From Eledone cirrhosa (lineage: Eukaryota), in contig OZ024744.1 of NCBI GenBank assembly GCA_964016885.1, positions 76,322,001 to 76,386,000 on the forward strand: a stretch of 64,000 nt of DNA, written 5' to 3'. A program made the position numbers and the translations under genes. Under the pieces are notes generated by a model. That model was not told the DNA's origin and did not search any database. It worked only from the letters and a program-made list of their open reading frames with translations. This document shows, one piece after another, positions 2,983 to 37,051 of this stretch. The stretch's first letter is position 1; each line of letters opens with the position of its first letter.

Positions 2983-3405
2983 TATATATTGGTAAACGGA
3001 ATAGAAAATGCTGACAAATTGTTCACAGTTGAAAAATGGTTTAATTAGGAATAAAAGAGTATTAGTGATTGTATGGGTTAGTATTCAGTTGTGGTTTTAA
3101 GTTTTTAAGTTTTTACCGGTTGCGCATTTCTAAATGCTTTTCAAAAATAATTTTGAGATAGAGTGTCCGTGCTGTTTGCTAGCACGGACACTCTATCTCA
3201 AAATTATTTTTGAAAAGCATTTAGAAATGCGCAACCGGTAAAAACTTAAAAACTTAAAACCACAACTGAATACTAACCCATACAATCACTAATACTCTTT
3301 TATTCCTAATTAAACCATTTTTCAACTGTGAACAATTTGTCAGCATTTTCTATTCCGTTTACCAATATATAATAACTTGTGTGTTACACTTCTATTCTTT
3401 TAACT
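2983..3405. mobile_element. Palindromic non-autonomous Penelope-like derivative in (TA)n
   Basis: Apparently perfect ~190-bp arms (2983-3173 / 3181-3371), 7-nt loop, ~34-nt one-sided tail. Hammerhead-like motif at 3210-3244. Confidence 0.75.
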
Positions 3406-4007
3406 ATATATATATATATATATATATATAGTTTTGCGAGGTTTTTTATATGAAATCGTGTGTCGAAACAGATATTGTTATACTTGGGGAGGGTCATATT
3501 TGCGTAATATTGCCAGAATTAATAACAGAACACACTGTTTGGTTGGTTTTCGCTTCTCGCTGTCTTTTATTATATCTGCGATCTAACTTACTCGGTCCTC
3601 AATGTTGCCATTGACTGACCGGCGGTCAAAAATAATACAGATACAATATAGACACAAACACATATATATATATATAGTTTACATAATTTACATAAATCTT
3701 TCGTTACACATCTGCAACATCGTCAGTGGTGTTATATTCATTGTTCCTCCTGTTGTGTTGTATGTCTACGCCATTTTTTATTCAGTCTGTCTATATATTT
3801 ATTTATTTATTTGCTTGTTTTTTTATCTTATTTTATTTTGTCTTCTTTGTGCATGCGTTTGCGTGTGTGTATAGTGTTATGTGTGATGTGTGACTAGTGT
3901 GTATAGTGTTGTGTCTGCTGGGTGACTAGTGTGTGTTTATGTGCTTGTTGTTATTGTGCTTGTGTATGTATTTATTTATCTTATTTTATTTAATTTTATT
4001 TACTTAT

Positions 4008-5107
4008 TTATACTTCTCTTAGGTCAGTGTTGCTTGTTTGGGTGTTGTTGTTGTTCCACTCATTCTTTCTGTTTAGCTTTGGTCTTCTAATTTCTATTTC
4101 ACTGGCCTCTCTGATTTGCCTATCTGCTGGGTCATTCCTATGTTTAGATATTATTCTAATTTCTATGTTGTCTATGTTACCGTCATGTTGTTGTCTAGCA
4201 TGTTCGTATAGTACTGACCCGTTTTTTCGTCCTTTTAGTTCCCCCCAGTGTTGGTCTATCCTTTCACCTATGCTACGAGCTGTCTCACCTATGTATGTTG
4301 TTGTCATGTTTCTGCAAGTACCCTCTGTACATCTTATGCTATAGACTACGTTTCTAGTTTTACAGTTTATCCGGGGGTTCACCTTACATATGATACACTT
4401 CCTATTGGTACAGTGGGTTTTCTTAAAAGGGTAGGTTTTGCTGATCAGGGATTTTATGGTGGTTCCTGGCTTTTCTACCACCTTTATTTTTAAGTGGGTC
4501 TTTCTCAGGGCCTTTCTACACTGGTTAGCTAATTTCCCTCCAGGGGTGGCGTCCACAAACATGACACTCTGATATCTCTGGTTGTCGTACCATGATGTGG
4601 CCTTCCCTATCTTATGTCTAGCCCTATCTAAGCTATTCCATGATTTGCTCCTGTATAGTGGGCAGATTCCTTTCATGTCCAGTTCTATGAGGGTCTTATA
4701 CTTTTCCATGGCTCCTTCGTATACTCTGACTCTGTCTCTTTGGTTGTAGCCAGAGAACTGCATGCGGTTGATGAAGTGTTGGATGTGTCCTTCCATTTCT
4801 GTTGGGTCGCACATGCTGGACACATTCTTCATCACTCGTACCAAATCTGCGGTCAGAATATTAAACTTAGCACTACTGGACATTGCTGAGTTTTTGAGTA
4901 TCAGGTATTTGGAGGCCATGGGTTTAGCATAGTGTGAGTGGAGAATTTGGGCTCTCTCGTCTATAGTGTTAATCCAGAGTTCTGTGTCTAATACAGGTAG
5001 TCTATTGTTAGGGTGTTTGGAAGGGAAGTCTATAGTTACAGTTATACTCTGGTGTATGGAGTTAGCTATCTGTTGGATGCTTTCCATCGTGCTACGTTCT
5101 AATTGAT
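4008..5107 (-). CDS. PLE polyprotein fragment: RT thumb region, Cys linker, GIY-YIG endonuclease
   Basis: DFPSKHPNNRLPVLD, YAKPMAS, MQFSGY, FVDATPGG, CxxxxCxxC..C, NVVYSIRC..TYIGETARS..ER..QH, REA..I..P.LN. Confidence 0.92.
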
Positions 5108-5700
5108 TTAGAACGTAGCACGAAACATGACAACAACATACATAGGTGAGACAGCTCGTAGCATAGGTGAAAGGATAGACCAACACTGGGGGGAACTAAA
5201 AGGACGAAAAAATGGGTCAGTACTATACGAACATGCTAGACAACAACATGACGGTAACATAGACAACATAGAAATTAGAATAATATCTAAACATAGGAAT
5301 GACCCAGCAGATAGGCAAATCAGAGAGGCCAGTGAAATAGAAATTAGAAGACCAAAGCTAAACAGAAAGAATGAGTGGAACAACAACAACACCCAAACAA
5401 GCAACACTGACCTAAGAGAAGTATAAATAAGTAAATAAAATTAAATAAAATAAGATAAATAAATACATACACAAGCACAATAACAACAAGCACATAAACA
5501 CACACTAGTCACCCAGCAGACACAACACTATACACACTAGTCACACATCACACATAACACTATACACACACGCAAACGCATGCGCAAAGAAGACAAAATA
5601 AAATAAGATAAACAAACAAGCAAATAAATAAATAAATATATAGACAGACTGAATAAAAAATGGCGTAGACATACAACACAACAGGAGGAACAATGAATAT

Positions 5701-5745
5701 AACACCACTGACGATGTTGCAGATGTGCAACGAAAGATTTATGTA
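5701..5745 (+). ncRNA. Minimal type I hammerhead-like motif in PLE pLTR (mirror copy ~3695-3730, minus)
   Basis: CUGACGA-U-GUUGCA-gaug-UGCAAC-GAAA. Stem I is weak. Confidence 0.6.
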
Positions 5746-34321: not shown

Positions 34322-35759
34322 ACCCGATACATACATACGTACATACATACACACACACACACACGCATAAATAATAGAAACAGACTTTTGACCAAAACTG
34401 TATTTCCTTCGTTTGAAATTTCTTCATTTTCTAAGAATTTCAGTCAACTTAGCGTGCCGATTGTTATTTTCGAAATGATGTTTTATCCAAAGCTGTTTAT
34501 TTAGATTCAACTTTAAAAGGACATTGTTATCAGGGTCTTCTTAGCTTAATGGTACCAGTTGATCAACCGGAATTTAAGAGGTACGAAGTTCGTTTCTCTG
34601 TGGCGACTACTTGGCCACTATTTCCCGCCAATAGGTAGTTTTATCCGATTTTTAAGCTACTATTTCTAACATTCGACTGATTTTACAGTTATTTTCTGTG
34701 TTTGAAATGTCTACATTTTCTAAGAATTTCAATTAGCTCCACGCTCCAATTATTTATTTTTTATATATATCAGTTTGACAATCGCCACCGACAAATGCGA
34801 GAAAGTTCTCGAGGAAAGTTAACAAGGAATCTTTAAAAAATCTTCGCGCCGTAGTTAACAAAGAACTTAATAGATGTAGAAAACTAAATTGTAATATTAT
34901 AATAATATAAAATTAAATCAAATTGTTTAGAACTACGATTGAAGTCATTCTTTTCCTTTTTTCAAATATACCTAACTGTACAAAGGATTTTACATATTTT
35001 CCAATATATATATATATATATATAAATTAATAAAAATAATGAATAAAAACAAAGAAACAGTTCCTTATATTAAAAAATTCATCATTTTATACGATCGTTT
35101 CTAGGATATATATGTGTGTGTTGGTATGTATATCATTTAGATCTATGTAAAATGTTTACAAACTATCAGAGGGAATATACATACCTACACATATATATGC
35201 TGTCTTCAGAAATAATGATATTTGTTTATTGAAAAAAAAACAACAAAGATTTAATATAATAGGTCTGTTTGGGAACAGGTTTTGAATTGACGAATAGAAA
35301 GGTAGTAAGTTGTCATATATATATATATATATATATATATATATATATATATATATATATATATATATGCGTGTGTTTGTGTGTGACTCCCGGGTTCAAT
35401 CTGGGATAACCACAGTTAGTACTCAATACATTAGTAGAGTGCAAACATGAAGTTTAACATACAAATTACTTCTACAGGACTAGAACTGTTTCATTCGTAT
35501 GAAATCATCATTCCTATGTATGTATATTACTCTATTACATGTTCCGTCCGAAAGGCTGAGGCCATGCTGGGGCATATATATATATGCAATATATTTTAGA
35601 TGTGAGCTATTTATATACACAGCTGAATAAACTCCTCGGTAACTATGTTAAATTTAGGTCTGTCTAGTCACAACGGCAACGCTAGCCATGCAGGCCATAT
35701 ATAAGTTTGACATGGCGGGAATAGAAGCTAGAACGCTAAGAACCATGACTGACACCTCA

Positions 35760-36430
35760 ACTCATCTCGACCGACGCTCTAACAATTACGCTAATCACCG
35801 CTTTGAAATCAGAACGTTATTTACGAATCACGAAAAGATTAAAAAGTAATGTTGAACTCGTCGAGATTTGAACTCAGAAGGAAGGAAGCGAGATCGAATA
35901 ACTGTTTCTACTTTTGGCACTAGGCCAGCAATCACTGGTACTTTATATTATCAACCCCATAAGGATGAAAGGCAAAGTTAACCTCCGCGAGATTTGAACT
36001 CTGAACGTTAGGGGCCGTAACTCTATGCTACAAAGCATGGCATCAGACCCTCTACCTATACTGCCAATCATTCTATCCAAGGTGCTAACGATTTCATCCA
36101 TCCATCGTCTTATATTTATTCATGCGTACTTTTGTTTTTTGTTGTTTTTTCTTTGTTTTGTTTTTGTTATTATTATCATTGGGGGATTGGCAGTATCGGT
36201 AGAGGGTCGGACATCAGGCGTTGCAGCATACAGTTACGCCCCTTTACGGTCTGAGTTGAAATCCCACCGAGGTTAACTTTACCGTTCATCCTTACGGAGT
36301 CGATGAAATAAAGCAGCAGTAATACACTGGTATAATTGCTGGCCTTGAGGGTCAGATGCCATGCTTTTCAGGATAGAGTTACGCCCCTTTACGGTCAGAG
36401 TTCAAATCTCACCGAGGTTAACTTTGCTGA
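35760..36430. mobile_element. Cluster of ~4 SINE copies or fragments in both orientations
   Basis: Core and B-box matches at ~35870, 35900-36070 (-), 36181-36348 and 36348-36428 (+). Confidence 0.8.
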
Positions 36431-36541
36431 GTAGCCTAATTTGCATATCGAGTGAGTTAGTCGGCCGGGCGTACCGGCCGTTAATATGCATAAGGAAAGT
36501 ATATACTTTCAAACGTTCAATCGATTGACAGGAAGGTATAC

Positions 36542-36578
36542 ATGCTGATGACAGCTAAGAAGCTAGAAACTAGTTCAT
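36542..36578 (+). ncRNA. Minimal hammerhead-like motif
   Basis: AUG-CUGAUGA-C-AGCU-aaga-AGCU-A-GAAA-CUAG-UU-CAU, with palindromic AACUAGUU. Confidence 0.6.
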
Positions 36579-37051
36579 CGTTCCTTTGTCAGTGTTGACC
36601 AAAAGGGAAACGATGGTTGCCGAGCACTGTACGGGCTGTTTGTTTACAAACAAACCGAACATTATAATAAATGTTCGGTAAACCCATACGTACATATATA
36701 TATGTGTACATGTATGTATGTATATACATACTACTGTACGTCAGTATACATATATGTATGTACGTATACATACTTATATTTAAGTATCAGCTGTACTAAG
36801 AGTGAGAAATTTCAATTTCAATTTCATTTTCTCTCTCTCTCTCTCTCTCTCTCTCTCTCTATATATATATATATATATATATATATATATATATATATAT
36901 ATAGGTAAGTTATTCCGGGTTGAATCGGAGATAACCACAGTAAGTGAGGTACTCTGAGGTACTCAATACATAGCAGAGTATAAAAGAGTATAATATATAT
37001 ATATATATATATATATATATATATATATATATATATATATATATATATATA

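What the first reader, a model, noticed from the sequence alone, without database searches (positions are those of the whole stretch)
2983..36990. Many short hammerhead-carrying, often palindromic elements associated with (TA)n
Seen: at least 8 distinct short non-coding families carry a CUGANGA...GAAA-type core, most in or beside (TA)n tracts. Cores lie at 3210, 5708/10139, 6377, 8634/31575, 8875, 9337/7830/35090, 15315, 31359/35470, 32660 and 36545. Several are fold-backs with a short one-sided tail. Established: Penelope-like pLTRs carry minimal type I hammerheads with palindromic stem III that can act as dimers. Inference: this is an ecosystem of (TA)n-targeted PLE derivatives, some possibly non-autonomous and retrozyme-like. 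They could be a major source of dsRNA (ADAR or RNAi substrate) in this genome.
Basis: partly seen in the sequence, partly recalled or inferred. Interest (0 to 1): 0.7.

Follow-up and report, generated by a model that had tools for sequence, protein, structure and literature searches.

The report
Penelope ribozyme stubs plus two retrozymes
The short ribozyme-shaped repeats are real: eight families are cut-off, often mirror-image end pieces of Penelope-type jumping genes that sit in TA repeats, likely dead-end copies of the front of the element's RNA, while two families are protein-free tandem repeats that likely borrow the same enzymes; whether any of them is transcribed or cuts itself is untested.

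Summary
Observation mostly confirmed. A hammerhead descriptor finds 7 sites in 2.9-37.1 kb against 0.18 in shuffles. The sites belong to ten multi-copy families (134 to 11,976 exact core matches in the five counted). Eight (A-F, H, I) continue upstream into GIY-YIG endonuclease ORFs of Neptune/Nematis- or Hydra-type Penelope-like elements (PLEs); their 3' ends are fixed at two points in TA repeats, and their fold-back junctions vary, so they are not fixed non-autonomous families. In three families short copies stop at a cliff about 30 nt below a TATA-like box, which suggests run-off copies of the RNA's 5' end. Two families (G, 520 bp at 15,007-15,612; J, about 434 bp at 36,426-36,829) have no ORF, occur as tandem units with PLE-type ends, and fit non-LTR retrozymes; G carries an unusual long helix III. 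Several listed core positions needed correction. No RNA evidence; the dsRNA claim is untested. The kind is known in print, and the scan has already noted such stubs and retrozyme arrays elsewhere in this genome and in others.

The parts
2990..3404 (+). Family A: fold-back of a Neptune/Nematis-type PLE end; cores at 3210 (+) and 3144 (-), U3-A8 and A13C variant; 33-nt one-sided tail
3431..5966 (-). Family B: 5'-truncated PLE with GIY-YIG ORF (4008-5195) between inverted arms (99%); cores at 3726 (-) and 5708 (+)
   Evidence: full-length 4,147-bp tandem copies with RT elsewhere
6292..6495 (+). Family C: solo PLE end, canonical core at 6377, palindromic helix III, ends in (CA)n/(TA)n
   Evidence: GIY-YIG ORF upstream in 3 of 15 loci
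7772..9608 (.). Family F: large inverted insertion of a Hydra-type PLE end; core at 9292 (+, U3-A8, long helix II); left arm (7778-7901) lacks the core; families D and E lie nested inside it
8557..8734 (+). Family D relative, core at 8634 with changed position 3
   Evidence: sequence
8767..9045 (+). Family E: fold-back of a Neptune/Nematis-type PLE end, U3-A8 core at 8875; 11,976 exact core matches in the genome
9949..10370 (.). Family B fold-back copy, core at 10,139
15007..15612 (-). Family G: 1.17 units of a 520-bp ORF-less tandem repeat; type I hammerhead, core 15,360, predicted cut after 15,249, helix I 8 bp, helix III a 66-nt hairpin
31289..31489 (+). Family H: fold-back of a Hydra-type PLE end, core 31,359, predicted cut after 31,397, about 70-nt tail; junction unique to this locus
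31521..31700 (-). Family D: Hydra-type PLE end, core 31,616, 8-nt palindromic helix III, 8-bp helix I
32247..32859 (+). Family I: PLE end with the endonuclease C-terminus directly upstream, canonical core at 32,660
35025..35230 (-). Sister of family F with a C3-G8 core at 35,209 and long helix II
   Evidence: sequence
35380..35520 (-). Diverged family H relative (73%), position 3 of the core changed
36426..36829 (+). Family J: about one unit of a 434-bp ORF-less circularly permuted repeat, core at 36,545, 6-nt palindromic helix III; 936 exact core matches

Best explanation
Eight of the ten hammerhead-bearing families here are 5'-truncated, often head-to-head end pieces (pLTRs) of coding Penelope-like elements inserted in TA repeats, the shortest ones likely being cDNAs that ran off the 5' end of the element's RNA, and two (G, J) are ORF-less tandem repeats likely copied in trans by the same kind of enzyme. 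Proposed steps: (1, from literature) the GIY-YIG/RT protein cuts both strands of an AT-rich target and starts reverse transcription at two sites inside the pLTR, which bracket the tail; (2, shown) each family has two fixed 3' ends, one with and one without the tail, both in (TA)n; (3, inferred) when priming uses the pLTR at the front of the transcript, the cDNA is only 100-250 nt long and stops at the transcription start, about 30 nt below a TATA-like box; (4, inferred) the two cDNAs made on the two DNA ends are joined head to head with short homologies or filler, giving a new fold-back at each insertion; (5, inferred) G and J transcripts are multimers or circles cut by their hammerheads and inserted the same way.
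For: ORF links: A, B, C, D, E, F, H, I. Two fixed 3' ends: A, D and F, E and B, H, G. TA flank read from outputs: 30 of 30 A loci and 30 of 30 H arms end at a TA run, while TA tracts of 10 nt or more cover about 6% of 2.9-37.1 kb (summed). Cliff: H, 53 of 80 arms stop within 7 nt of the core, none at 8-13, TATA-like box at -29; E, 18 of 30 unbiased arms stop at or below the candidate start, none in the next 18 nt, box at -30; A, 25 of 35 arms stop within 27 nt of the anchor, box at about -31 (score-biased sample). Junctions vary and carry filler. Both arms share subfamily variants: G 16 concordant/0 discordant, D 7/0, F 14/4, against 14.2, 4.8 and 12.9 discordances expected at random. G: arrays with 23 and 8 full core-to-core units, longest ORF 61 aa; helix I differs but stays paired in 70-73% relatives; hammerhead fold within 1.9 kcal/mol of the minimum, z -4.0. 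J: 434-bp period, longest ORF 54 aa. Two RT start sites and cutting of both strands were shown in vitro for an Anolis PLE (PMC11167929).
Against: No transcription start was mapped; the TATA-like boxes are read from sequence. Family B, the second most abundant counted, shows no such cliff (17 of 28 arms extend 155 nt or more, and several shorter scores reflect indels); C, D and F have 5' clusters or scatter without an evident TATA box, and the Drosophila Penelope promoter is TATA-less (PMC2377424). The H tally left out 20 of the first 100 matches, 18 of them in long inverted pairs, so the short share is nearer half. In H and F the cliff also coincides with the 5' edge of helix I, so an RNA-structure stop is not excluded. 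Arm concordance does not separate two primings from fold-back self-priming; J gave 8 concordant/13 discordant, A 0/12 (all from two nested loci), H 3/7 (the 7 at the TA junction). G arrays are not uniform (mean 1-13 differences within arrays, 13.8 between), so rolling-circle copying of one monomer is not shown. No coding partner of G or J was found. Two different Hydra-type endonucleases lie upstream of H copies and their continuity was not checked.
Confidence: 0.72

Rival explanations
1. The fold-backs are fixed, MITE-like non-autonomous families amplified from hairpin master copies.
For: The best 40 hits to the window's H copy all show a like fold-back; 12 of 30 were identical; one junction has 129 exact copies.
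Against: That sample was chosen by score. In the position-ordered sample junctions vary, the 129 copies hold about 11% of 2,405 arms, the junction centre is a short palindrome at the cliff that would recur on its own, and the short ends vary in A-run length from copy to copy.
Confidence: 0.08
2. Fold-backs form by self-priming of one cDNA (or of an antisense RNA) at a structure-induced stop at the edge of the hammerhead, not by two primings running off the RNA start.
For: Self-priming was proposed for PLE palindromes (PMC3846280); arms usually carry the same variants; cliffs in H and F lie at the 5' edge of helix I.
Against: In A and E the cliff lies about 40-50 nt upstream of the core, at a fixed distance from the TATA-like box; the untailed end also occurs on solo copies and shows repeated A-rich units typical of a priming end.
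Confidence: 0.2
3. G and J are satellites born from a dead pLTR and spread by DNA-level amplification, with no RNA step.
For: One G array has 23 full units with scattered near-identical units; the 2026 preprint allows local tandem amplification.
Against: Most G and J loci are dispersed, hold 1-3 units, end at two fixed points in (TA)n and carry inverted 5' pieces, which are PLE insertion marks.
Confidence: 0.1
4. The motifs are chance matches in AT-rich DNA.
For: The consensus is short; one descriptor hit (13,006) looks like chance; Rfam listed no hammerhead in the rows shown.
Against: 7 versus 0.18 in shuffles, pairing kept across diverged relatives, position in pLTRs.
Confidence: 0.01

Closest known systems
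Minimal type I hammerheads in pLTRs of metazoan PLEs (Cervera and de la Pena 2014, PMC4209133; parts 1-2 of 4 read)
   Same: Many families per genome, short helix I, extra base after A9, palindromic helix III, U3-A8 variant, mostly single motifs of truncated PLEs, pairs on opposite strands 100-700 bp apart.
   Different: Here the short copies stop at a cliff about 30 nt below a TATA-like box in three families; family F has a helix II of about 107 nt; family A has A13C in its copies.
Canonical EN+ PLE insertion unit; Hydra and Neptune/Nematis clades (Craig et al. 2021, PMC8557442, passages and section 11; Arkhipova et al. 2013, PMC3846280, passages)
   Same: 5' truncation, adjacent inverted copy, one-sided tail, (TA)n bias, palindromes at junctions, TATA and Inr motifs in a pLTR.
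   Different: Tails here run from 33 to about 135 nt rather than 30-40; no clade tree was built.
Metazoan non-LTR retrozymes (Cervera and de la Pena 2020, PMC7229834, parts 2-3 of 6; bioRxiv 10.64898/2026.07.22.740005, parts 1 and 3 of 5)
   Same: ORF-less tandem units, one type I hammerhead per unit, AT-rich, co-occurring with PLEs, proposed to be mobilised by them.
   Different: G is 520 bp (150-450 bp reported) and has a long stable helix III like the fungal and protist PLE hammerheads, so it should cut as a monomer; G and J insertions show PLE ends (two fixed 3' ends, inverted 5' pieces, TA targets), which the parts read do not describe. No RNA shown here.
Anolis PAc (Poseidon) internal initiation (Frangieh et al. 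2024, PMC11167929, parts 1-2 of 4)
   Same: Two RT start sites bracket the tail; both strands cut and extended; AT-rich targets.
   Different: That work does not address run-off copies or fold-back junctions in the parts read; it found the ribozyme dispensable for insertion in vitro.

Membership tests
EN+ Penelope-like element (families A-F, H, I) | C-terminal GIY-YIG endonuclease ORF upstream of the pLTR | tested here: met
   Pfam GIY-YIG only for C, E 0.0012 and below cut-off; none for the window ORF; the others rest on motifs and tblastn to session proteins
EN+ Penelope-like element (families A-F, H, I) | RT in the same ORF | tested here: met
   A and B: RVT_1 at E 6e-6 and 1e-4, below cut-off; H: RT N-terminal fragment. 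Not seen for C, D, E, F, I, whose loci were too short or truncated
EN+ Penelope-like element (families A-F, H, I) | pLTR with hammerhead, inverted 5' copy, optional tail | tested here: met
   no inverted copy seen for C among 40 hits
Hydra clade (D, F, H) | CxCX5C-type linker, CxxC and CxH near the EN end, DKT motif, (TA)n insertion | tested here: met
   motifs read against the description; DKT seen only at one H locus
Neptune or Nematis clade (A, B, C, E, I) | CX2-5CxxC linker | tested here: met
   A, B, C; E and I by similarity of the EN only
Neptune, Nematis or Hydra clade | Placement in an RT tree with reference families | not tested
Non-LTR retrozyme (G, J) | Tandem units, at least two consecutive with a complete type I hammerhead | tested here: met
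   G: arrays of 23 and 8 full units; J: one dimer in the first 100 matches, most loci 1-1.5 units
Non-LTR retrozyme (G, J) | No protein coding | tested here: met
   longest stop-to-stop frames 61 and 54 aa
Non-LTR retrozyme (G, J) | Self-cleavage, and accumulation as linear and circular RNA | not testable with these tools
   needs bench work or RNA data
Non-LTR retrozyme (G, J) | Sequence kinship to a PLE pLTR | tested here: inconclusive
   blastn against 322 loci and the window found only ORF-less relatives
Fixed non-autonomous hairpin family (A, E, H fold-backs) | One junction shared by most copies | tested here: not met

The most novel reading that the evidence does not exclude
PLE insertion uses twin priming on the front pLTR of one transcript, so the thousands of small hairpins are paired strong-stop-like cDNAs that map the transcription start and both RT start sites; and family G is a currently spreading 520-nt circular RNA with a monomer-active, long-helix-III hammerhead that is inserted by the same twin-priming machinery, giving a genomic read-out of how animal retrozymes move.
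Probability: 0.4. Interest if true: 0.7.

Novelty: new member of a known kind. Interest (0 to 1): 0.45.

Why it matters
How PLEs make their inverted ends and how animal retrozymes get into DNA are open questions in the papers read. The fixed ends and the cliff give exact, testable predictions (start site, cDNA lengths), and G offers a very young retrozyme (copies 97-100% alike) with a predicted monomer-active ribozyme. Extrapolating the first 100 matches gives roughly 460 (H) and 1,900 (E) short perfect hairpins genome-wide, possible dsRNA substrates only if transcribed. The components themselves are known kinds.

Tried and rejected
Rfam scan: no hammerhead among the 150 rows shown, which are simple-repeat matches. 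Sequencing runs for G: no RNA holder listed; laying four runs of unknown kind, contigs only, showed cover and variants but cannot show expression; neither is evidence. ADAR footprint in 97 G units: 13 A>G against 26 T>C rare changes, no unit with 3 or more. Rolling-circle uniformity of G arrays: mixed. Search for a coding partner of G and J among fetched loci: none. My first reading of H as a fixed hairpin family was rejected. My guess that the window's H junction was the parent sequence was wrong. One search timed out; the 5'-extent measures for B and E and for E were broken by indels or a bad anchor and were replaced. A formal tally of TA flanks over all families and a continuity check of H's upstream ORFs were not run, so TA counts are read from printed outputs. 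Lunse et al. 2016 (PMC5785218) was not held; only its title was seen, so whether A13C or the U4A cores of G relatives are described there is unknown. No supplements were read; those of the 2020 and 2026 retrozyme papers and of Craig 2021 may list cephalopod families.
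Full report
Setting. The window is G000:C28:76,322,001-76,386,000 of a 3.0-Gb animal genome. The host is probably an octopod, judged from recalled SINE sequence only. The region 2.9-37.1 kb is rich in TA tracts (about 1.9 kb in all, summed).

Observation. Every listed place carries hammerhead-like sequence. A strict type I descriptor gave 5 hits against 0.14 in 100 local shuffles; one that allows long helices gave 7 against 0.18 in 40 shuffles and none in the rest of the window. 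The second descriptor was loosened after I had seen families F, G and H, so it is not a blind test; the first was closer to one. The main one is family F, whose core is a U3-A8 variant at 9292 with a long, well-paired helix II (z -2.55, 2 of 200 shuffles as good), while its sister at 35,209 has C3-G8.

Families. Genome searches returned at least 40 scored copies for each of A, D, F, H, E, J, G and C. Exact core matches: E 11,976, B 8,765, H 2,405, J 936, G 134, with 0 in reversed controls. Family I was not searched genome-wide. Long copies of eight families run upstream into GIY-YIG ORFs. A, B and C show a CX4CxxC-type linker, and E and I resemble their endonucleases; B has full-length tandem copies with RT. 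D, F and H show the Hydra marks described by Craig et al.: altered linker, CxxC and CxH at the end of the endonuclease, and DKT at one H locus. Two different Hydra-type endonucleases lie upstream of different H copies; which is the true parent was not settled.

Ends. Each family examined has one or two fixed 3' ends in TA repeats; the stretch between them is the tail (33 nt in A, about 62 in E, 70 in H, 75 in G, 95 in D, 135 in F). In fold-backs one arm has the tail and the other does not. This matches the two RT start sites and the cutting of both strands shown in vitro for an Anolis PLE.

Fixed or variable fold-backs. The score-ranked search made H look fixed. The position-ordered list does not: 19 close pairs in 100 matches with 10 different spacings, filler at many junctions, 129 copies of one palindromic junction against 2,405 arms, and a window junction found once. 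A and E also vary. So fold-backs are made anew at each insertion, at a hot spot.

The hot spot. In H, 53 of 80 arms stop within 7 nt of the core and none at 8-13 (one of the 53 is really a deletion in a long copy; 20 of the first 100 matches, mostly long inverted pairs, were not in this tally). In E, 18 of 30 arms stop at or below 45 nt from the anchor, none at 46-63. In A, 25 of 35 stop within 27 nt (biased sample). In all three a TATA-like box starts 29-32 nt above the cliff. I read the cliff as the RNA's 5' end. Against this: B shows no cliff, C, D and F show no clear box, and no start site was mapped. Arms of one insertion mostly share subfamily variants, which points to one source RNA or locus but does not separate twin priming from self-priming, the model proposed by Arkhipova et al.. 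Two literature searches listed no PLE paper with 'strong-stop' or 'twin priming'; the library lacks most subscription papers. I noted this reading before looking up the scan's notes, which hold the same idea for this and other genomes; those notes are not independent support.

Families G and J. G is a 520-bp unit, 97-100% alike across loci, in arrays of up to 23 full units and in many dispersed copies of 1-3 units with inverted 5' pieces and two fixed ends in TA repeats. It has no frame over 61 aa. Its hammerhead has an 8-bp helix I, a canonical core kept in 87-90 of about 90 units at each position (no more than expected for so young a family), a GUC cut site and a 66-nt helix III; the active fold is 1.9 kcal/mol above the minimum. 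Relatives at 70-73% keep helix I paired with different letters. J is a 434-bp circularly permuted unit, 82-95% alike, mostly 1-1.5 units per locus, with a palindromic helix III and several subfamilies. Both meet the sequence criteria for non-LTR retrozymes. Units within G arrays differ by 1 to 13 changes on average against 13.8 between loci, so both circular and multimeric templates remain possible. No partner PLE was found among the fetched loci. The scan's index held no look-alike of G or J, though it holds many notes on a 310-bp retrozyme in this genome.

dsRNA. Extrapolation gives some 460 H and 1,900 E short hairpins, but nothing here shows that they are transcribed, and G units carry no A>G excess. 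A 2026 Octopus vulgaris repeat annotation lists 31 recently active Penelope-like families and does not mention ribozymes (passages); a search for octopus with hammerhead, Penelope and retrozyme listed no paper on this.

Verdict. A real, dense population of PLE ends and two retrozyme-like families; known kinds, with a testable mechanistic hint and one unusual ribozyme variant. Interest 0.45.

Noticed in passing
   Followed up: no
window 6742-7013 and 7260-7530: Two 94% copies with a half hammerhead core on the minus strand (6803, 7321) that begins like the family C core; similar DNA lies in locus L278.
   Followed up: partly
window 33,062-33,150: Fragment sharing about 20 nt with the unique filler at the window's H junction, a possible template for it.
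   Followed up: partly
L226 about 1075-1215 and L075 about 995-1145: Relatives of G (about 73%) both have A at core position 4, with helix I re-paired; L075 is itself a tandem unit of roughly 455 bp.
   Followed up: partly
window 1-1468, 17,629-18,861, 24,244-30,990 and 40-62 kb: Many LINE copies with AP endonuclease and RT, some nearly intact (27,287-30,739; 46,686-50,301); the class L1-Tx1 is a recalled label.
   Followed up: no
window 11,250-12,940, 23,600-23,800, 35,900-37,700: Clusters of a SINE that resembles octopus SINEs (recalled, no call); the basis for guessing an octopod host.
   Followed up: no
L383 (G000:C1:14,381,000-14,390,900): Tandem full-length family B copies, period 4,147 bp, with a long Asn-rich stretch in the N-terminal part, like the N-rich inserts of Adineta PLEs.
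   Followed up: partly
window 16,235-16,542 and 19,840-20,150: Two 85% copies of a 310-bp repeat, unrelated to the hammerhead families.
   Followed up: no
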